From Sphagnum compactum (taxonomy: Eukaryota), in contig OZ234493.1 in the NCBI GenBank assembly GCA_965153455.1, forward strand, positions 33,532,213 through 33,596,212: DNA of 64,000 bases, read 5' to 3'. The notes under the pieces are model-generated. The model worked only from the letters and a program-made list of their open reading frames with translations. It made no database searches and was not told where the DNA came from. Numbering within the stretch: the stretch's first letter is position 1; each line of letters begins with the position of its first letter. Below, piece by piece: positions 1,778-61,329 of this stretch. Position numbers and translations under genes: made by a program.

Positions 1778-4700
1778 ATGGGATCACTGCCTTCTTGGTG
1801 ATGGGTTTTCATTGCTTTGTGTTTGTCCAGCTATGGTGCAATAGCAACTCAGGGGACAGGGAGAAGATTGATGGAGGATACGTACAGTATTGTAGTTGAC
1901 CCAAAAGGAGTGGATCCTGCCTTTTTTGGGGTTTATGATGGTCATGGTGGCAATGCGGTCGCAGAGTAATTCTTGATCGTCATCTCCACTCTCATGCTCT
2001 GTATTTAAGCTTTTTCTTCTTCAACAAGTTGCATCAATTTTACATCTCTTTTGGGTCGAATGTGTCTTTAATGTATTGGATTCTCCATGGGCTGTCAATT
2101 GAGGTACTTCTATGGATGTATGCTTCAGATCAAAGGAAATGACACATGAGATTCAATGTGTTTATGTTTTTCCTGACACTTGGGGGTAGACAATCATTAA
2201 CAAAACAAGGAGTCATTGATGCATTTATACATATATGTCGCTTTTGGATTCAGGATGCTGAAGACAAACATGTGGCCTGTGTACAAGAAGAAGCTGGCAG
2301 GTAATGTAGAGAAGTCAAGTAGGCTGTCATTTTATATACGAATTTGAGAGGGGTACACATTTGCACTATTGAAGGTTGCTGATTTGACTCACAATACATC
2401 TCCTTTTTCTACTGATTTTGTTGTGAAATGGTGCCCCGACGGATTGGGTATGTAGGTCCAGATCTTGTGAAAGCCACAACAGCTGCTTATCTTGAACTTG
2501 ATCAGCTATCACTTGTAAGGAGCAGCTCTTTCTTGTTAGTTGCAATGTTCTTGAAAGTGGGGGCAGTATTGACCGCCGTCTTCTTTTAACTTTTTTATGC
2601 ATTAGGGTTTGGATGTTTTGTGCAAATGAATACAAAAACAACCAAAGGCAAAATAGAGTCTAGTGAAGTGGCTATGGAAAGAGCAAAGGTGTTGAGAGAT
2701 CGAGGTTATTTGGATGACAGGCACAACCAAAGGGTCTGTTTGGAGCAATGAGGGAGCGTGGATTGGGAGGATCAAAGTGTGGAGCAACTGCTGCTACAGT
2801 GGTTCTCTTGCCTCGACAAGGTTAGCTATATTTGTGTTTTGTCTGTTTTCATGCAACTCTTGCAGGCAGCTAGAGCTACACCCCTCACCATCTCCAAGGC
2901 ATGTACAATGCAATAATTGCTGAGAAAGATAATTAGTATATTGTTGCTTAGTCATGGTAGTAGTGGCTTTGTTATGTGGATATGCACCCCCCATCTTGAC
3001 CCTGGTTCATATCAGGTGAGAAACAGGTGTTGGTGGCTGCAAATGTAGGAGATGCTCGAGTTGTTCTCTGCCGTGGGGGTCAGGCAGTTCAACTGACTGT
3101 TGATCACAAGGTTAGAGAGAAGCTTTCTTTTTTCCCCACCTCAACAAACTTTGGGATTGGTCCCACATGCACAAGACTTTCTTGTATGCCTGTGGATATT
3201 TTCTCTTCCCTATAATAGTTTATGGAGGCTGCCTGATAAAAAATTGCAGCCAGATGTTGAAGCAGAGAGAAAGAGGATTGAGGCCAAGAATCCCACACCC
3301 AAGAAGCCACTTGTAAGTTGGTCTCATTCAGTTGCGCTGGGTTAAAACTTTCTTGTTGATGTTGCTTGTCTTGCTCACTGCTACTGCATCTATTGGTTAT
3401 TTGTCTCCTCCATATGTTTTTGCCTGAAAAAATTGCATCATTTCTGTTCCAAGTCTACCTCTCCAATTATTCTCAGACATGATTTTTGTCACATCTGCTG
3501 ACTGTGATCTGTGCCAGGTAGTGAATGTGGAAGGTACATGGCGAGTAGGTGGTCTACTGGCTCTCTCGCGTGCATTTGGGGATGTCTATCTTAAAGAGTA
3601 ACTCCTGCTGTGCAAGAAGCCTGAATAGCTCATCTTTTTTCTTGCCTAGCAGATTACAACAGCATCAACTTAGAGCTTCTCCACCGGTGCTCAGATATGT
3701 GGCCCAGCACTGGAAATCTCAGATGAGGTGCAACAGTCATATCCAGTTGATCCACTGGAAGACTGTTGCACCTCGGAAAAATGCACATCTTCGTGCACCT
3801 CGGAAGAGTCTTGGAAGAGTCTGATAAATACAGTCAAATCGAATTTATTGACTGCTCCTTGTTTCTGATTGGTTAGATAGTTTGATTGGTCCAGGTGGGT
3901 TGCTATTAGTAATCTCCCAACTATTTGCAGTCCCAGTTTTAGTTTCATGGGTGGGGTTGGAAAAAAGTAAATAATTAAAACTTGGATGTAAGAAATATTT
4001 TTGCAGGGTCACATACTGAGCACCACTGCTGGAGATACTCTTACAAGCAGCACACACACACATACACACACACACCTGATGATGTCAAAACTGTTTTGCT
4101 GGTTGTAGCTGGTCAGATAACAAAGTGGATGGTGCTCGTGGAGGATTTGGGCTGACTGCTGAACCACATGTGACAGTGGAGACACTCACTCCTGGTAATG
4201 ATGTCATATCCTAATTTCCCATGGACCTCGTTTGGATTAGTCCCACATATGTGAAGCAGATCTTAACAGCAAGAAAGACAGCGTAATCACATATTTTATC
4301 TATCTTCTGATGCAGAGGATCAACTGATAATTTTGGGAACTGATGGACTCTGGGAACTGGGAAATCAACAAGTTGTGGACATTTGCCTCGCAGCAGGGTG
4401 AGTTTGACTTGACCTTTAAGTTTCTTCAGGGAACTCGTGTTCTATTCTCCTTTCAGGAAACAAGGAGGATTATAAGTGTAGTTGTCAATCTGATTGCTAT
4501 TCAGGACAAAGCATGTGATGGTCTGATGCTTTGTGAGCAACTCTCAGAAGCTTATGACTGCACCCATTGTGATGAAGGTGATGGTCTGACACTTTGTGAG
4601 TGACTCTCATAAGGTTATGCCTGCACCCATTATCACAGTACTGTTCAAATGGCTATTGTAGATCACTTTTCTGCAATTTATTTGTCAGGATGATGCTATT

Positions 4701-25886: not shown

Positions 25887-26251
25887 TGTCAAACAGATTG
25901 CTTCAGCCGTATGCGGGGAAATTTGCATGTATGGTTTAGAGGGAAGCTTGAGGGGGTCTATTTATCTTAAAAAATATAACAATATTTTATCATGGGTTCA
26001 AATTCCTCCATAGGAGACGTAGTTCAATTGGTAGAGCGCATGTTTTGCAAGCATGAAGCTGTCAGTTCAAATTCGATTGTCTCCAAATAAACGAATAATC
26101 TGCTATGAGAAAAACAGCATAAGTGTTTGGATGAATGATGATAACATCTGCGAGATATTTCGTTATGCTTTGCACTTGAACAACTTGGCTTCAGGAAAGC
26201 CAATCCAAAAATCAGAATGGGAGATTAATTTATCTATAGATTTTCTATGTT
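25887..26251 (+). other. NUMT-like insertion: group II intron domain V/VI, degenerate tRNA 3' exon and trnA
   Basis: AGCCGTATGCGGGGAAATTTGCATGTATGGTT (about 25905-25936) is a group II intron domain V (AGC triad, GAAA tetraloop), followed by tRNA-like sequence and trnA. The block is flanked by the direct repeat GAGTTGACA (25878-25886, 26252-26260). Confidence 0.75.
26013..26085 (+). pseudogene. trnA: Decayed organellar (mitochondrial-type) tRNA-Ala(UGC) in a nuclear insertion
   Basis: 73-nt cloverleaf GGAGACG..TGTCTCC-A, anticodon loop TTTGCAA, T-loop TTCAAAT. Stem defects are C>T/G>A-type transitions, and the Ala identity pair G3:U70 reads A3:U70. Confidence 0.8.
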
Positions 26252-26693: not shown

Positions 26694-26715
26694 TAGGGTT
26701 TAGGGTTTAGGGTTT
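26694..26715 (+). repeat. Short interstitial plant telomeric repeat
   Basis: TAGGGTTTAGGGTTTAGGGTTT, three units. Confidence 0.6.
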
Positions 26716-56380: not shown

Positions 56381-56838
56381 TAACCTGTGTTGGTCGGTTA
56401 TTGAGTTTTGACTCGGTTATCATCCCGGGTATGCTAACGTATCTTGATTTTTTTTGATATTCGGTTAATAACTTAACTACCTAATATTGCTTTTTCAAAA
56501 ATTAATAACCTACCCAAATGAGTTAGTAATCATCTAGGGAGGCTAATCAATCTTAAAACCCTAAACAGGTTTATGATATAAAACAGAAAAACCCAGAAAT
56601 AAATAAATATAAGACATTAAAAACCATTAACTGAGCAATAACTGACAGTTATCAATAGATTTTTTTGATAACCTACCCTTATGCATAATTGATGATTATT
56701 ACTCAACCAGTATTGATAACTTAATTGGCACCTATTATTTAAATATTATTATTGATAACCTAATTGACACCAATTAAAAAAAAAAAAACCCTACCCAACA
56801 ATTATGGAAAAAAAATTAATAACCGGCCAACACTGGTT
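56381..56838. mobile_element. Non-autonomous DNA transposon (hAT-like TIRs)
   Basis: TIRs AACCTGTGTTGGTCGGTTATT / AATAACCGGCCAACACTGGTT, with multiple subterminal TAACC motifs. Confidence 0.6.
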
Positions 56839-57447: not shown

Positions 57448-58277
57448 ATGGGGCACTCAGCGGTGTGGAACTCGCATCCCAAGAGTTATGGGCCCGGCTC
57501 GCGCACCTGGTATGCATCGCGCGCTCTCTCTCTCTCTCTCTCCGCCGTTCCGTTATCTGTTTCTTTTTAGACCTTTCGTGCGATTGATGATGTCCTTGTT
57601 AGATTCGAAGTTAGAGGAAGTTTCGGTGAGCCGGGAATGCTTGGAAGATCTTAGGTCAAGAGTTTTCTTAGTGTCGGTGGCTCGACGCACACTGCGAAGC
57701 AAGCTTTTTATGGCTGTTATTGTTTTACCGATCCCAAAGCTTCTCTGTACTTTGCGCATCTCTTTCCTCCTTCAGGATTTACTTCTAGTAAGGGTTTTCC
57801 TCAAGAGCTGGATTGTTTTTAGGGCATTGCAATCTGGTCTGAGATGGAATGATTTCGATTTCTATGGATTAAAGGGGAGTATATATGCATATTGTCTGGG
57901 TTTTGGAATGCATTGCAGCCGGGTGTGTGGGAACAGTCATGGTATGATCCGCAAGTACGGGCTCAACACGTGCCGGCAGTGTTTTCGCATCTACTCTAAG
58001 GATATTGGCTTTGTGAAGGTATCCCCACTCACATTCCTTTCTTTCCTTGCATGCCCCTGCACATGTATAGGATGTAGTAGGAAGTCCATGCTTTTCTCTG
58101 AAATGTTTTGGAACCGAAGGTAGAAGAGATGGCAGCAATAGATGTGTCCTTTCCACAGGAGGTGCAATTCTGCTAGTGATTATGTGTAGTCTGAACTGTT
58201 TTTAGTGCAGTGTGTTGATATGTGAACCATGATGAGCTTATTCTTTTACATTGCTGTTTGTGTTTCAGTACCGCTAA
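57448..58277 (+). CDS. RPS29: 40S ribosomal protein S29 (uS14)
   Basis: Exons 57448-57509, 57919-58018, 58269-58277 give 56 aa: [56 protein letters not shown], with the CxxC..CxxC zinc finger. Confidence 0.97.
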
Positions 58278-59630
58278 GGTGCCAATGAAGTAATGTGCTG
58301 CTGCTATTTTGGTGAAGGCAAGACTGGAGCATCTGGAGAACTCCAAAGTGGAAAAAGACATAATAGCAAATGGCATGTGATTTGTGATTCTGATGTTGTA
58401 GGTGTTATGAGATATTTGTGGTTGAAGACATTATTAAATCTTTTTTTTTTAATGTGAAGGGGATTCCCCTTACTTCACAAAGAAACTGTGGGTTGAGTGG
58501 ATTATAACTTTGTGTTCTATTTTTCACCTTCGCTTCTTCAGCTGGTGTAAGTCTTTTGCATAGAATTGAGATTTCATTAGCTATTATCTTCTAGCTGCAT
58601 GCAATTCATCATGATATCAATTGCAGGGATCGCAGGGCTATTGTTGGCAATCAACTCTTTGTGGAAGAGAGTAAAACAGGATCAGTGTCTTGTAAGCCAA
58701 TGGAACATAAGAATGTGAAACCATCAAGAAGAGTGTCTTCAGAAATGTCACAGAAGTATGTTTAATTTCCATCCCCATTTGGTCTAGTTTTCCTCTGTAG
58801 GCAGTTTCTCTTTGTTACATGTCCCTTTTGTATGTCTTTTGTTTTCCCCCCTAGTATATTTCTCCTCGTTTTCTTTGCTGCTAGCTAGCCAGTATAATGA
58901 CTGGGTTTTCGCGTTATTTCCAGACTTGCTGCTGCAACTTAGTTTGTAGAAGGGAAAGTTGTGATAGAGAAGTTCTTATCATACATTTTAACTGTTGAGC
59001 GGCCATTGAATAAGTGGACAGATTTGTCAATGCTTTGAAGATTGGAAGGTAATATATCAACGAGGATTGTTGTACACTATCAGTCAGCTTTTTCTACATA
59101 GATTGTTGCAGGTCCTTAGAAAGTTAATAAATTATATCATTTTCTCAGAACTTTGCACTTTTCTCCATCAATTTACAGTCCACTATTCGTTATTTAATTT
59201 TTGGTTACAATTTTCAAATATTGACACTGGAAACAATTTTCTGAGCTGTTTCTCACAAGAAAAATGTCAATCTGTTCGAGTTGCATTTGTGAAAGTCGAA
59301 TTGAAAAAGGTTGCTGTGGTTTCGGGTTTAGCGGATATGTGTCTTAATGTCCCTTAACGGACGTTTAGTATATAAGGTTTGCAATCCAACAAAACTGACA
59401 AGTTCACTTGCTAGAGAATTCAGATGCTAAAACTGGTGAATTTCAATTCCTAGAGATTCGAATTGAAGCACAATCTGATCTTTGCTTAAAAACTTGATAA
59501 AACTTTGTATACCTTCCTACTTCTCAAGTTCCTCAGTATCCTTTTAAGAGTAACCATTTTCCAGAAACGATCACAACATTGTTGTCAGGGTTTACTTTTC
59601 ATGGAGCTCGGAAGTCAATTTTTATTCAGC

Positions 59631-59717
59631 ATGGCATCAGTTTGTCAGAGGTGAAAAAACAATTGCAACATTTGTGTAATTCAGTGTGTAGAATAAGATT
59701 CAATCATCACTTGCCAT
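59631..59717 (-). ncRNA. Box C/D snoRNA, snoR16-like, double guide
   Basis: 9-bp terminal stem AGCAUGGCA/UGCCAUGCU (59720-59712 / 59636-59628), box C GUGAUGA, D' CUGA (59684-59681) preceded by CUUAUUCUACAC (antisense to 25S GUGUAGAAUAAG), box D CUGA (59640-59637) preceded by UUUCACCUCUGACAA (antisense to 18S UUGUCAGAGGUGAAA). It lies next to U43, as I recall snoR16 does in angiosperm clusters. Confidence 0.88.
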
Positions 59718-59767
59718 GCTAAAGGACCCACAATAAAATGGGACCCAGATACCCAGCAGAGAGCATG

Positions 59768-59868
59768 ATCTTTCAGAGATGTCAACGGCATTAGTGCCGA
59801 GAACTGTGTACAGACATTCAACATGGCATCAGTTCAGTCCGCCCGTCTGCATTTTGTCATCATCAAGT
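59768..59868 (-). ncRNA. U43: Box C/D snoRNA U43 (SNORD43/snR70 homolog)
   Basis: Minus strand: box C AUGAUGA (59863-59857), guide GACGGGCGG, D' CUGA (59837-59834), box D CUGA (59776-59773), short terminal stem. The guide pairs with universal 18S CCGCCCGUC, and the +5 rule gives the C equivalent to yeast Cm1639 / E. coli C1402. Confidence 0.9.
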
Positions 59869-59885
59869 CCGAGCTCTCCAACTTA

Positions 59886-60024
59886 CAATATGACTGCTGA
59901 AATAATGCATGCACATATGCATTCTTCCACATGTCTTCAAGACTCATGTTATCTCGCCAAGTACCTCAACGGAATTTCAATGCCTAATAGCTATCTTACG
60001 ACAATCCGTTATAGTTCCGACAAA
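59886..60024 (-). ncRNA. Candidate box H/ACA snoRNA
   Basis: 5' hairpin UUGUCGG/UUGGCG with inner stem AACGGAUU/AAUUCCGUU and an internal loop, H box AGAUAA (59954-59949), second hairpin (AAUGCAU/AUGCAUU, GAC/GUC) ending in AUA+3 nt. It lies between two other snoRNAs of the cluster. Confidence 0.5.
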
Positions 60025-60181
60025 ACAGTACAAGAAAAATTTCAAGAAGCAACGAAGGCTGTCATGGAAACCACGAGAGAGAGAGAGACCATCGATCGAG
60101 AGTGAACCATTCCAAATCCTTTGACTGGGAGAAACAGATGACTGAAATTGAAGTGTGCTCATCTTAAGGTTTTATTTCGCA

Positions 60182-60346
60182 ATATGTCAACAGCCCATCG
60201 TACCGATCTCGGAGAGCATAAAACCGATACCGGCATAGCGAGGGCTGCATAGAGACGGGCGTTTCCTAGGCGCCCGAATCCAGCACTCTTGCTTCAGGGA
60301 ACGGACCCACTGGTACTGCACGACACAGCGATCAGTTTATGAAGCA
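60182..60346 (-). ncRNA. Box H/ACA snoRNA, E3/SNORA63-like
   Basis: 5' hairpin closed by UGCUUCA/UGAAGCA, H-like AGAGUG, an extra hinge hairpin CGGGCG/CGCCCG, 3' hairpin CAGCCC/GGGCUG with pocket UCGCUAU / ACG, ACA 14 nt below the pocket top and 3 nt from the end. The pocket fits 25S CGU[U]C-AUAGCGA. Confidence 0.78.
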
Positions 60347-60459
60347 TTTCACTGTCCAAAACAACTTGTTGAAGTCTAGCTAAAGCAAAAGAACGAATAG
60401 AAAACAAATCGCAGATTACGAAGACAAAATGATCACAGATATGCAGATGCTGAAGTGAA

Positions 60460-60675
60460 GAGGACTTATAAGCGGCGCAGCTCTGAACTTATATGACGAA
60501 GGGTTTGGGTGAAAGGGGCGGCACCAAACCCTAACCCTAATCCCATCGCCGCAACCCTGGAATTGGCTATACCTGGGATCCGGCCGTTGCGCGAGTTTCA
60601 GCTTGGCGCCCAAAGACGAGTTCGACGTTCGTAAAAATCCGACGAGCCGCGCCACAGTTATTGAAGGTGGGCCAG
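60460..60675 (-). promoter_or_regulatory. Putative Pol II promoter of the snoRNA cluster (TATA + teloboxes + site II)
   Basis: TATA-like elements at 60465-60472 and 60488-60495, overlapping teloboxes AAACCCTAA/AACCCTAA at 60526-60540, site II TGGGCC at 60668-60673. This combination is typical of plant ribosome-biogenesis and snoRNA genes. Confidence 0.6.
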
Positions 60676-61329
60676 AGCTCCGAGAATGTCCATAATTTGG
60701 CTGGTCGCTTTTCCACTCTCTCGTTGGTTTATTTCTGTGTAAAAGCGACTTTGAAGAATGTAATCTGTTCCCTGAAGATTACGACGAATATAATGGCCAG
60801 AGATTTATTTAAGAGATCAGATCAACACAAGGAAGGATAGTTGCAGTTAGACGAGAAGATGCTTAGAGAGAGTTAAAGATTACTCCAATTTAATTTTTCA
60901 TTGCAAATTTTCAATGGGTGCAACTGTTCTGTAAATAAAATAGTGTAATGAAAATTTTACAGAGGCTTCATAGTTGCGGTGTATAACTGGGGTCCAGTCG
61001 AAAGTCCAGTACAAAGTCCAGTCCGAAGTCTGGCGACACCGTCACTATTTTGAACAAGGAAAGTGATTGATTTCTCGAGATAGAAGACGACATGCAAAGA
61101 ATAGGCGTGTAATGGATTAAGAACGACAATGCTTCAAGATGCGTAAAATTTTGTAAGTACGTGTTAAGTACGTGTTCCTTATTTTTCGTGACGATCCATA
61201 GAATGATATACACAATTGAGTACGAGTAAACAACTGCATTCAACGGAAGAGAGCATACAAATATCGGTTGCTGTTTACTAGAGGCTGGGCTTTAGTTGGA
61301 TTCTGCTATGCACACAATCAACTGAATTC

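What the first reader, a model, noticed from the sequence alone, without database searches (positions are those of the whole stretch)
59519..60675. Hidden polycistronic snoRNA cluster with its own telobox promoter, convergent with RPS29
Seen: on the minus strand, at least four structured small RNAs lie in series within ~850 bp (H/ACA 60346-60182, H/ACA candidate 60024-59886, C/D U43 59868-59768, C/D snoR16-like 59717-59631, and possibly a fifth degenerate C/D). They sit behind a TATA + telobox + site II promoter, in a region where the ORF track shows only junk. Established: plant snoRNAs are often polycistronic with telobox promoters. Inference: one Pol II precursor supplies guides for both the 18S decoding region and the 25S peptidyl-transferase region, tail-to-tail with a ribosomal protein gene. 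Mixed C/D plus H/ACA clusters in bryophytes are poorly described as far as I know.
Basis: partly seen in the sequence, partly recalled or inferred. Interest (0 to 1): 0.8.

Follow-up and report, generated by a model that had tools for sequence, protein, structure and literature searches.

The report
Moss snoRNA gene cluster beside RPS29
This is an ordinary plant-type gene that makes several small RNAs guiding chemical marks on ribosomal RNA; two of them are clearly real and a third is likely, and the same pair already sits together in a known Arabidopsis cluster.

Summary
The minus strand of 59.6-60.5 kb is transcribed. In stranded polyA RNA-seq of the same species, every read there is antisense-first, and there are no reads on the other strand and no splice joints.

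Two box C/D snoRNAs are solid:
- A snoR16 homologue at 59719-59629 scores 42.7 bits in Rfam, and its orthologues in close relatives score 45.7-46.2 against a threshold of 45.
- A U43 homologue at 59870-59767 places 18S C1645, the Arabidopsis U43 site, at the fifth guide position. It is 92% identical over 53 nt to the gene beside snoR16 in a distant plant.

The first H/ACA candidate (60346-60182) is probably real. It is 98% conserved against 82-89% for the spacers, and it has a canonical 3' hairpin, pocket and ACA box. Its H box is off-consensus, it matches no Rfam family, and its rRNA target is not significant.

The second H/ACA candidate and the "fifth C/D" are not supported.

The telo-box, site II and upstream TATA elements are conserved. 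RPS29 is convergent, about 1 kb away.

Arabidopsis already has a mixed cluster snoR160/snoR16-2/AtU43-2, so this is a new member of a known kind. One modest novelty is that the snoR16 D guide here matches 18S (U900) instead of 25S U48.

The parts
60668..60673 (.). Site II element (TGGGCC on the + strand, GGCCCA on the transcribed strand)
   Evidence: GGCCCA is kept in relatives L061 and L062. The motif definition TGGGCY, valid in any orientation, comes from PMC4660826 passages.
60526..60540 (.). Telo-box pair (AAACCCTAACCCTAA on the + strand)
   Evidence: Exact AAACCCTA at 60526-60533. There are 19 in the window against 3.35 expected, and 0 of 100 shuffles reach 19. The pair is invariant in L061 and L062.
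60499..60506 (-). Telo-box-like AAACCCTT (7 of 8) on the sense strand
   Evidence: Read. Invariant in relatives.
60489..60494 (-). Conserved TATA box (ATATAA)
   Evidence: It is invariant in relatives, whereas the second TATA (60471-60466) reads TTTACT there.
59629..60465 (-). Transcribed precursor region (ends approximate)
   Evidence: run X22. Antisense-first reads are found only in bins 59616-60524, at depths 1.08 to 10.4. Depth is 0 on the other strand, 0 in 59010-59615 and 0 in 60525-61000. No joints were seen.
60182..60346 (-). H/ACA-like snoRNA (probable). It has a 5' hairpin (60346-60290), a hinge AGAGUG (60289-60284), an extra hairpin (about 60282-60249), a 3' hairpin with a 7+5 nt pocket, and an ACA at 60187-60185.
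   Evidence: Fold z -2.09. 162-163 of 166 aligned positions are identical to three relatives, and the conserved block ends 3 nt after the ACA. No Rfam family matches.
59886..60024 (-).
59767..59870 (-). Box C/D snoRNA, U43 homologue. C box 59865-59857 (two overlapping UGAUGA), D' guide 59850-59838, D' 59837-59834, C' UGAUGC 59831-59826, D 59776-59773.
   Evidence: The Arabidopsis C1645/U43 assignment is in PMC8053127 Table 1.
59629..59719 (-). Box C/D snoRNA, snoR16 homologue. Terminal stem 59719-59712 with 59636-59629, C 59710-59704, D' guide 59697-59686, D' 59684-59681, D guide 59656-59644, D 59640-59637.
57914..58018 (+). RPS29 exon (the convergent neighbour). Its last exon starts at 58268.
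   Evidence: Pfam PF00253. Loose end at 58267 and depth up to 292 on the opposite read orientation.

Best explanation
This is an independent, RNA polymerase II type snoRNA gene of a moss-like nuclear genome.

[quoted passage not shown] The precursor is then cut and trimmed to release three small nucleolar RNAs.

(1) An H/ACA-like RNA at 60346-60182. It is probably a pseudouridylation guide whose target is not established.

(2) A U43-type box C/D RNA. Its D' guide directs 2'-O-methylation of 18S C1645 in the decoding region.

(3) A snoR16-type box C/D RNA. Its D' guide directs methylation of 25S at about U2456. Its D guide, unlike the angiosperm one, is complementary to 18S around U900.

Shown here: strand-specific transcription, the boxes and stems, guide complementarity, selective conservation, and homology.

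Inferred: polymerase II, a single precursor molecule, processing, and the modifications themselves.
For: Transcription. In X22 (polyA RNA-seq raw reads of the same species label, about 12% of the run read) the cluster bins carry only first-mate-on-+ reads. Depths are 1.08, 2.4, 3.66, 5.77, 7.48, 10.4, 6.65, 1.18 and 0.21 from 59616 to 60524. The + strand gene RPS29 carries first-mate-on-minus reads (up to 292), so the cluster RNA is minus-strand. Flanks read 0 and there are no joints.

snoR16.
- Rfam RF00296 scores 42.7 bits over the full-length model. Orthologues score 45.7, 45.7 and 46.2 against a gathering score of 45.
- Terminal stem of 12 bp.
- The D' guide pairs 12 of 12 with GUGUAGAAUAAG, the 25S variant seen in G004 and L003. 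It pairs 11 of 12 with L055, target U2449 in L055 numbering. This fits Arabidopsis U2456/SnoR16.1 (PMC8053127 Table 1).
- The D guide makes 13 contiguous Watson-Crick pairs to 18S, target U900. Only 2 of 200 shuffled guides do as well.

U43.
- 9 contiguous pairs put 18S C1645 at position 5. C1645 is the U43 site in Arabidopsis.
- Window 59863-59811 is 92.5% identical over 53 nt to a gene about 110 nt downstream of snoR16 in distant-plant contigs L058/L060.
- Arabidopsis has the cluster snoR160/snoR16-2/AtU43-2 (PMC2875012 table).

Selective conservation against three related contigs.
- HACA1 97.6-98.2%, cd1 96.0%, cd2 96.6-97.8%.
- Spacers 82.4-89.1%, tail 82.4%.
- All guides and boxes of cd2 are invariant.

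HACA1.
- Its only 3 differences fall at a G-C to G-U change, an apical loop and a bulge.
- The pocket top lies 14 nt from the ACA.

Promoter. 60720-60481 is about 95% conserved, including the telo-boxes, GGCCCA and the upstream TATA. The TeloSII definition is in PMC4660826.
Against: - No small-RNA data, so mature ends and accumulation are not shown.
- RNA-seq support is thin, roughly 25 reads by my arithmetic from the depths. Coverage falls 10-fold from 5' to 3', so a single molecule spanning all three genes is not demonstrated.
- The window's own snoR16 copy is 2.3 bits below Rfam's threshold.
- The U43 guide alone is not significant: 29 of 200 shuffled guides score as well, and two other rRNA sites score equally. 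No Rfam family matches it.
- The snoR16 D' guide alone is also not significant against the L055 variant (51 of 200).
- HACA1 has no ANANNA H box, carries an extra hairpin, and its 5' hairpin has no pocket at the canonical distance. It matches no Rfam family even at E<=10 on 191 nt.
- HACA1's best rRNA match (3+7 bp to 25S CGU-UC-AUAGCGA) is equalled in 13 of 80 random windows.
- The rRNAs used are from other plants (contaminant rDNA in bacterial assemblies), not from this species.
- The relatives are close (85-91%) and amount to about two lineages, so there is almost no covariation.
Confidence: 0.75

Rival explanations
1. One reading: four or five snoRNAs, namely two H/ACA, two C/D and a degenerate fifth C/D, all made from the one precursor.
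For: The 60024-59886 stretch lies inside the transcribed region, at depth 5.8-7.5. It has a conserved AGAUAA after a 5' hairpin. Two changes in its 3' hairpin keep pairing (G-U to A-U, G-C to G-U).
Against: - No ACA box, only AUA.
- Fold z -1.5 here and -0.94 in L059.
- The 5' half is 68-69% identical with an 11-nt deletion, and the 3' half is 87.5-89.1% identical, no better than the spacers.
- Of 43 predicted pairs, 1 is compensatory and 5 are broken in at least one of 3 sequences.
- No Rfam hit.
- The 'fifth C/D' has zero reads in 59515-59615 and 82.4% identity.
Confidence: 0.12
2. The conserved block 60346-60182 is not an H/ACA guide. It would instead be another structured non-coding element, for example a processing or stability element of the precursor, or a small RNA of another class. 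The locus would then make only the two C/D snoRNAs.
For: - No canonical H box, only AGAGUG.
- An extra hairpin, and a 5' hairpin without a proper pocket.
- No Rfam H/ACA family at E<=10.
- No significant rRNA target.
- No homologue next to snoR16/U43 in L058/L060.
Against: - The 3' hairpin has the defining H/ACA geometry: a 7-bp lower stem, a 7+5 nt internal loop, an upper stem, and an ACA 14 nt from the pocket top.
- Conservation stops exactly 3 nt after the ACA.
- Arabidopsis keeps an H/ACA (snoR160) in front of snoR16-2/U43-2.
Confidence: 0.25
3. The snoRNAs are intronic passengers of a spliced, possibly non-coding, host gene rather than parts of an unspliced polycistron.
For: Intronic snoRNA clusters exist in plants and algae; I saw only the title of the Chlamydomonas paper, in the reference list of PMC5122169. 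Coverage is low, so rare junction reads could be missed.
Against: No joint from X22 inside 59600-60500. Coverage is continuous across the snoRNAs and spacers alike. No flanking exon-like covered blocks are seen, with 0 depth on either side.
Confidence: 0.05

Closest known systems
Arabidopsis polycistronic cluster snoR160 / snoR16-2 / AtU43-2 (Kim et al. 2010, PMC2875012; table passages seen)
   Same: It is a mixed cluster with one H/ACA in front and the same two box C/D families, snoR16 and U43, behind it. The U43 guide is for 18S C1645 and the snoR16 guide for 25S about U2456 (PMC8053127 Table 1).
   Different: - Here the order of the two C/D genes is U43 then snoR16. In the distant-plant contig L058 it is snoR16 then U43.
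- The H/ACA-like RNA here shows no detectable similarity to any Rfam family, snoR160 included if Rfam holds it. It has no pocket for 18S U1306 that I could find.
- I did not see the Arabidopsis sequences themselves.
Rfam RF00296 snoR16
   Same: Full-length match to the model. C and D boxes, the GGCA/UGCC terminal stem and the D' guide plus D' box are conserved.
   Different: The family consensus D guide (CUCCGCUUAUUAU, printed) fits 25S U48. That guide is absent here and is replaced by a 13-nt complement to 18S. The window's score is 42.7, below the gathering score of 45.
U43 / SNORD43-type box C/D snoRNAs
   Same: The D' guide places the decoding-region cytidine (plant 18S C1645) at the fifth position. 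The C box, guide, D' and C' are 92% identical to the U43-position gene of a distant plant.
   Different: There are only 9 contiguous pairs. The part between C' and D differs between the moss and the distant plant and varies among the close relatives, so there is no conserved second guide. No Rfam model recognises either copy.
TeloSII promoters of plant ribosomal-protein and polycistronic snoRNA genes (PMC4660826, passages)
   Same: Telo-box AAACCCTA, site II TGGGCY and a TATA box lie within about 250 bp upstream of the transcribed region. All are conserved in relatives.
   Different: Promoter activity, the transcription start and the polymerase are not tested. Telo-boxes are common throughout this window (19), so the motif alone is weak evidence.

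Membership tests
snoR16 (Rfam RF00296) | Covariance-model score at or above the gathering score (45 bits) | tested here: inconclusive
   The window copy scores 42.7 bits, E 1.7e-5. The orthologous copies in L059, L062 and L061 score 45.7, 45.7 and 46.2.
snoR16 (Rfam RF00296) | Box C, box D and a terminal stem | tested here: met
   GUGAUGA at 59710-59704, CUGA at 59640-59637, and a 12-bp stem. It is the only such hit in the window on either strand.
snoR16 (Rfam RF00296) | D' guide for 25S about U2456 (Arabidopsis numbering) | tested here: met
   12 of 12 pairs with the GUGUAGAAUAAG variant and 11 of 12 with L055, target U2449 in L055 numbering. The link to U2456 rests on an offset of about 7 nt, which I did not check against an Arabidopsis sequence.
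snoR16 (Rfam RF00296) | D guide for 25S U48 | tested here: not met
   The D guide here is UUUCACCUCUGAC, complementary to 18S (13 bp, target U900), not to the 25S 5' end.
U43 box C/D snoRNA | Guide placing 18S C1645 (decoding region) five nucleotides upstream of D' | tested here: met
   9 contiguous Watson-Crick pairs, target C1645 in plant 18S from L031. This is the U43 site in PMC8053127 Table 1. The pairing alone is not significant (29 of 200 shuffles).
U43 box C/D snoRNA | Sequence homology to an accepted U43 | tested here: inconclusive
   92.5% over 53 nt to the gene next to snoR16 in L058/L060. I call that gene U43 by position and guide only. No Rfam model matched and I saw no Arabidopsis sequence.
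Box H/ACA snoRNA (candidate 60346-60182) | ACA box 3 nt from the 3' end, 14-16 nt from the pocket top | tested here: met
   ACA at 60187-60185. The conserved block ends 3 nt later. The distance is 14 nt. The true 3' end was not measured.
Box H/ACA snoRNA (candidate 60346-60182) | H box ANANNA in the hinge | tested here: not met
   The hinge reads AGAGUG, with G in the last position. No ANANNA lies in the hinge.
Box H/ACA snoRNA (candidate 60346-60182) | Hairpin-hinge-hairpin-tail fold | tested here: inconclusive
   The minimum-free-energy fold has three hairpins, with an extra one after the hinge. z -2.09, and 5 of 200 shuffles fold as well.
Box H/ACA snoRNA (candidate 60346-60182) | Bipartite guide complementary to an rRNA or snRNA uridine | tested here: inconclusive
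   Best match is 3+7 bp to 25S CGU-UC-AUAGCGA. Equally good matches occur in 13 of 80 random windows. snRNAs were not searched.
Box H/ACA snoRNA (candidate 60024-59886) | ACA box and conserved two-hairpin fold | tested here: not met
   AUA instead of ACA, z -1.5 and -0.94, and identity of 68% and 88% with indels.
Plant polycistronic TeloSII snoRNA gene | Telo-box plus site II upstream of a TATA box | tested here: met
   The definition is from PMC4660826.
Plant polycistronic TeloSII snoRNA gene | All snoRNAs on one primary transcript | tested here: inconclusive
   Coverage is continuous and single-stranded without joints, but no single read pair or cDNA was shown to span the cluster.

The most novel reading that the evidence does not exclude
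The U43-snoR16 gene pair has stayed linked since mosses and seed plants diverged, while its contents were rewired in the moss lineage. snoR16 would have exchanged its 25S U48 guide for one directing a lineage-specific 2'-O-methylation at 18S U900. The H/ACA slot would be occupied by a founder of a new H/ACA family, with an extra hairpin and an off-consensus H box.
Probability: 0.3. Interest if true: 0.4.

Novelty: new member of a known kind. Interest (0 to 1): 0.25.

Why it matters
It gives one well-documented bryophyte example of the plant way of making snoRNAs: an independent polycistronic gene with a ribosome-biogenesis promoter. It also shows that a specific gene pair, U43 with snoR16, is linked in both a moss and a distant plant.

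It yields two directly testable predictions about moss ribosomes: a methylated 18S U900, and retention of 18S Cm1645 and 25S Um at about 2456. A 2024 review of plant rRNA methylation that I searched does not mention mosses at all.

None of this changes how snoRNA genes are understood.

Tried and rejected
- Rfam at gathering thresholds over the whole window gave no snoRNA.
- The genome search with the LSU family failed twice. A pattern search worked instead.
- L054 turned out to be chimeric (bacterial-looking sequence joined to a 25S piece) and was not used.
- My first guide ranking, by total matches, was misleading and was replaced (then).
- The relaxed H/ACA target scan is non-specific: random windows score 10-13. 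I therefore give no weight to any H/ACA target.
- The idea that the HACA1 pocket site equals human 28S psi4390 (SNORA63, PMC6984369 table) rests on my own recalled numbering (yeast 2826 = human 4373, plus 17 nt). It is a lead only. It is not the universally conserved psi2826/E. coli 2457 site (PMC11121408 passages).
- I looked for a snoR160-like pocket for 18S U1306 and found none.
- blastn-short found no HACA1 or HACA2 homologue in L058/L060; the best hit is 12 nt, E 0.1.
- The metatranscriptome contigs (X16) cover 59351-60711 at about 86-91%. They reach beyond the transcript limits and come from a relative, so I do not count them as evidence of expression.
- The per-base differences of organisms B and C inside the cluster were cut from the output.
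- Brown 2001 and Qu 2001 are not held.
- The supplementary modification tables of PMC8351944 and PMC8053127 could not be seen. They may list a plant pseudouridine at the candidate site, or a methylation near 18S U900.
Full report
WHAT IS THERE

Read on the minus strand, the stretch from 60.72 to 59.6 kb contains the following, in order:
- GGCCCA, the site II element (TGGGCC on the + strand at 60668).
- A double telo-box (AAACCCTA at 60526-60533 on the + strand).
- AAACCCTT at 60506-60499.
- Two TATA-like boxes, at 60494-60489 and 60471-60466.
- A leader.
- A structured block at 60346-60182.
- A (CT)n microsatellite near 60080.
- Two box C/D units.

On the + strand, RPS29 lies upstream. Pfam PF00253 matches 57914-58018 at E 9.6e-9. 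Its last exon starts at 58268, and its reads fade out by about 58.6-58.9 kb. The two genes are therefore tail-to-tail, about 1 kb apart.

EXPRESSION

One sequencing-run search and one lay of reads were available. I laid four runs on 58000-61000:
- X22: raw polyA RNA-seq reads under the same species label, about 12% of the run read.
- X16: a moss metatranscriptome.
- X9 and X11: two related organisms.

In X22 the RPS29 last exon carries first-mate-on-minus reads (depth up to 292), so the library reads the strand opposite to the RNA. Bins from 59616 to 60524 carry only first-mate-on-plus reads. Depths are 1.08, 2.4, 3.66, 5.77, 7.48, 10.4, 6.65, 1.18 and 0.21. Depth is 0 on the other orientation, 0 from 59010 to 59615 and 0 from 60525 to 61000. 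No joints were reported inside the cluster.

This shows a minus-strand, apparently unspliced RNA. It starts somewhere in 60424-60524 and ends near the 3' end of the last C/D unit. Coverage is thin, roughly 25 reads by my arithmetic, and declines 5' to 3'. A single full-length precursor is therefore inferred, not shown.

REFERENCE rRNA

No genome is held for this window. I annotated two of them with Rfam:
- L031 holds a full 18S (666-2473) and 5.8S.
- L038 holds 25S positions 1-2259.

A pattern search in 5 of the source genomes, 4 of which matched, gave L055. L055 aligns to 25S 945-2169 at 96.5% and runs on to the 3' end. These rRNAs come from other plants, not this species.

THE snoR16 HOMOLOGUE (59719-59629)

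- At lax thresholds, Rfam gives snoR16 at 42.7 bits (gathering score 45), E 1.7e-5, model 1-86 of 86. Nine other C/D families overlap the same place, at 16-25.5 bits.
- The orthologous copies in three related metagenome contigs score 45.7, 45.7 and 46.2.
- A scan of the whole window, both strands, for RUGAUGA...CUGA flanked by a stem of at least 5 bp finds this unit only, with a 12-bp stem. Twenty shuffles give 0 or 1 hits each.
- The D' guide CUUAUUCUACAC pairs 12 of 12 with the 25S variant GUGUAGAAUAAG (seen in L003 and G004). It pairs 11 of 12 with L055, with the target U at 2449 in L055 numbering. This fits the Arabidopsis assignment U2456/SnoR16.1 (PMC8053127, Table 1 passages).
- Against the L055 variant the D' score alone is unremarkable: 51 of 200 shuffles do as well.
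- The D guide differs from the family. The Rfam consensus CUCCGCUUAUUAU fits 25S U48 (also assigned to SnoR16 in that table). Here UUUCACCUCUGAC makes 13 contiguous Watson-Crick pairs with 18S and puts U900 at position 5. Only 2 of 200 shuffles do as well.
- No methylation at or near 18S 900 is in the Arabidopsis list I saw.
- Both guides and all boxes are invariant in the three relatives. The 2-3 differences all fall between D' and the D guide.

THE U43 HOMOLOGUE (59870-59767)

- Boxes: two overlapping UGAUGA at 59865-59857, D' CUGA at 59837-59834, C' UGAUGC at 59831-59826, and D CUGA at 59776-59773.
- The terminal stem GACUU/AAG(A)UC has one bulge, by my reading.
- The D' guide gives 9 contiguous pairs that place 18S C1645 at position 5. 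C1645 is the U43 site in Arabidopsis.
- The pairing alone is weak. 29 of 200 shuffles do as well, and two other sites score equally.
- The decisive evidence is homology. The one metagenome scan (5 loci) returned three close relatives (L059, L061, L062). It also returned two contigs of one distant plant (L058 and L060, 99.97% alike).
- In the distant plant a canonical snoR16 (74.8 bits, with the U48 guide) is followed about 110 nt later by a sequence 92.5% identical over 53 nt to window 59863-59811. That stretch covers the C box, guide, D' and C'.
- Kim et al. 2010 tabulate an Arabidopsis cluster snoR160/snoR16-2/AtU43-2 (PMC2875012, passages).
- The part between C' and D is not conserved between the moss and the distant plant. 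It takes all 4 substitutions seen among the close relatives, one of them at position 5 of the would-be D guide. I therefore read this as a single-guide snoRNA.

THE FIRST H/ACA CANDIDATE (60346-60182)

Evidence for:
- 162-163 of 166 aligned positions are identical to the relatives. This compares with 82-89% in the spacers and 84% in the leader.
- The block starts 2 nt before the 5' hairpin and ends exactly 3 nt after the ACA (60187-60185), where the first indel appears.
- The only three differences are a G-C to G-U change, an apical-loop base and a bulged base.
- The 3' hairpin has a 7-bp lower stem, a 7+5 nt internal loop and an upper stem. The ACA lies 14 nt from the pocket top.
- RNA-seq depth peaks here.

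Evidence against:
- The hinge reads AGAGUG, not ANANNA.
- An extra hairpin follows the hinge.
- The 5' hairpin has no pocket at the canonical distance.
- No Rfam family matches, even when only 191 nt are searched at E<=10.
- The best rRNA match is 3+7 bp to 25S CGU-UC-AUAGCGA. It is equalled in 13 of 80 random 881-nt windows under the same structural filter, and in 68 of 80 under the looser one.

I rate it a probable H/ACA snoRNA, at about 0.65, of unknown target.

THE SECOND H/ACA CANDIDATE AND THE 'FIFTH C/D'

Second H/ACA candidate, 60024-59886:
- AGAUAA is present, but the 3' end has AUA rather than ACA.
- Fold z-scores are -1.5 (20 of 200 shuffles fold as well) and -0.94 in L059 (33 of 200).
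- The 5' half is 68-69% identical to relatives, with an 11-nt deletion. A further 3-nt deletion lies just after the AGAUAA box, counted in the 3' half, which is 87.5-89.1% identical.
- Of 43 consensus pairs, 1 is compensatory and 5 are broken in at least one sequence.

'Fifth C/D', downstream of 59629: there are no reads, and identity is 82.4%.

Both behave like spacer.

THE PROMOTER

- 60720-60481 is about 95% identical in L061 and L062 by my count from the alignment. That is higher than the transcribed spacers.
- The telo-box pair, AAACCCTT, GGCCCA and the upstream TATA are invariant.
- Telo-boxes are generally enriched in this window: 19 against 3.35 expected, and 0 of 100 shuffles reach 19. 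The motif alone therefore says little. The combination with site II and a TATA box is what PMC4660826 describes for polycistronic snoRNA and ribosomal-protein genes (passages).

COMPARISON AND NOVELTY

This is a plant-type polycistronic snoRNA gene. Its two C/D members belong to families already found together, with an H/ACA, in Arabidopsis.

A literature search for snoRNA + Physcomitrella + polycistronic found 17 papers, of which 12 were listed. None of the 12 is about moss snoRNA clusters, judging by title. A 2024 review of plant rRNA methylation does not mention mosses. The bryophyte instance is therefore new as a record, but not as a kind.

The points of modest interest are:
- The U43-snoR16 linkage is shared with a distant plant, with the gene order swapped.
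- The snoR16 D guide has been replaced by a well-conserved 18S complement.
- There is an unclassified H/ACA-like RNA.

Noticed in passing
window 25902-26085 (+): A group II intron 3' domain (Rfam 43.2 bits) lies 42 nt upstream of a tRNA-Ala(UGC) gene (55.2 bits; ARAGORN agrees). This looks like a piece of organelle DNA inside an otherwise nuclear-looking window.
   Followed up: no
window 58909-59009, core 58952-58990: This is a multi-copy element. DNA depth is 632 in X9 and 348 in X11, against about 30-40 nearby, and RNA reads (13x) are on the + strand sense. Other copies continue upstream with a C-box-like ...GCTGATGAAGTCAGT that this copy lacks. It may be a fragment of a repeated small-RNA gene. 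Rfam gave nothing at gathering.
   Followed up: partly
window 59624-59642 and 59816-59834: A 19-nt direct repeat (18 of 19 identical) links the D box, 3' stem and flank of the snoR16 unit with the C' region of the U43 unit. The U43 part is also conserved in the distant plant. It could be local gene conversion or chance; I have no explanation.
   Followed up: partly
window about 60075-60090: The (CT)n tract is expanded to (GT)n(CT)n of very different lengths in the relatives. It is also where the contigs of X9 and X16 break.
   Followed up: no
window 58268-58460: About half of the RNA reads on the RPS29 last exon carry alternative letters and small indels (for example 209 of 418 at 58287). This suggests that a second, expressed RPS29 copy or allele maps here.
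   Followed up: no
window 26694-26715 and elsewhere: There are three tandem telo-box units at 26694-26715. Telo-boxes are also at 56556 and 56786, upstream of RPS29.
   Followed up: no
L058 4440-5080: The distant-plant contig carries four box C/D units in a row. The first has a guide resembling the 25S 5'-end complement, followed by snoR16, the U43-like gene and a fourth C/D. All lie behind a TATA-like box near 4010. Only snoR16 is recognised by Rfam at gathering.
   Followed up: partly
L001-L053 (genome contigs): Eukaryotic rDNA, including plant-type ITS starts, is present in at least 53 contigs filed under bacterial or archaeal assemblies. One of them (G001:C45, L054) joins a 25S fragment to GC-rich bacterial-looking sequence.
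   Followed up: no
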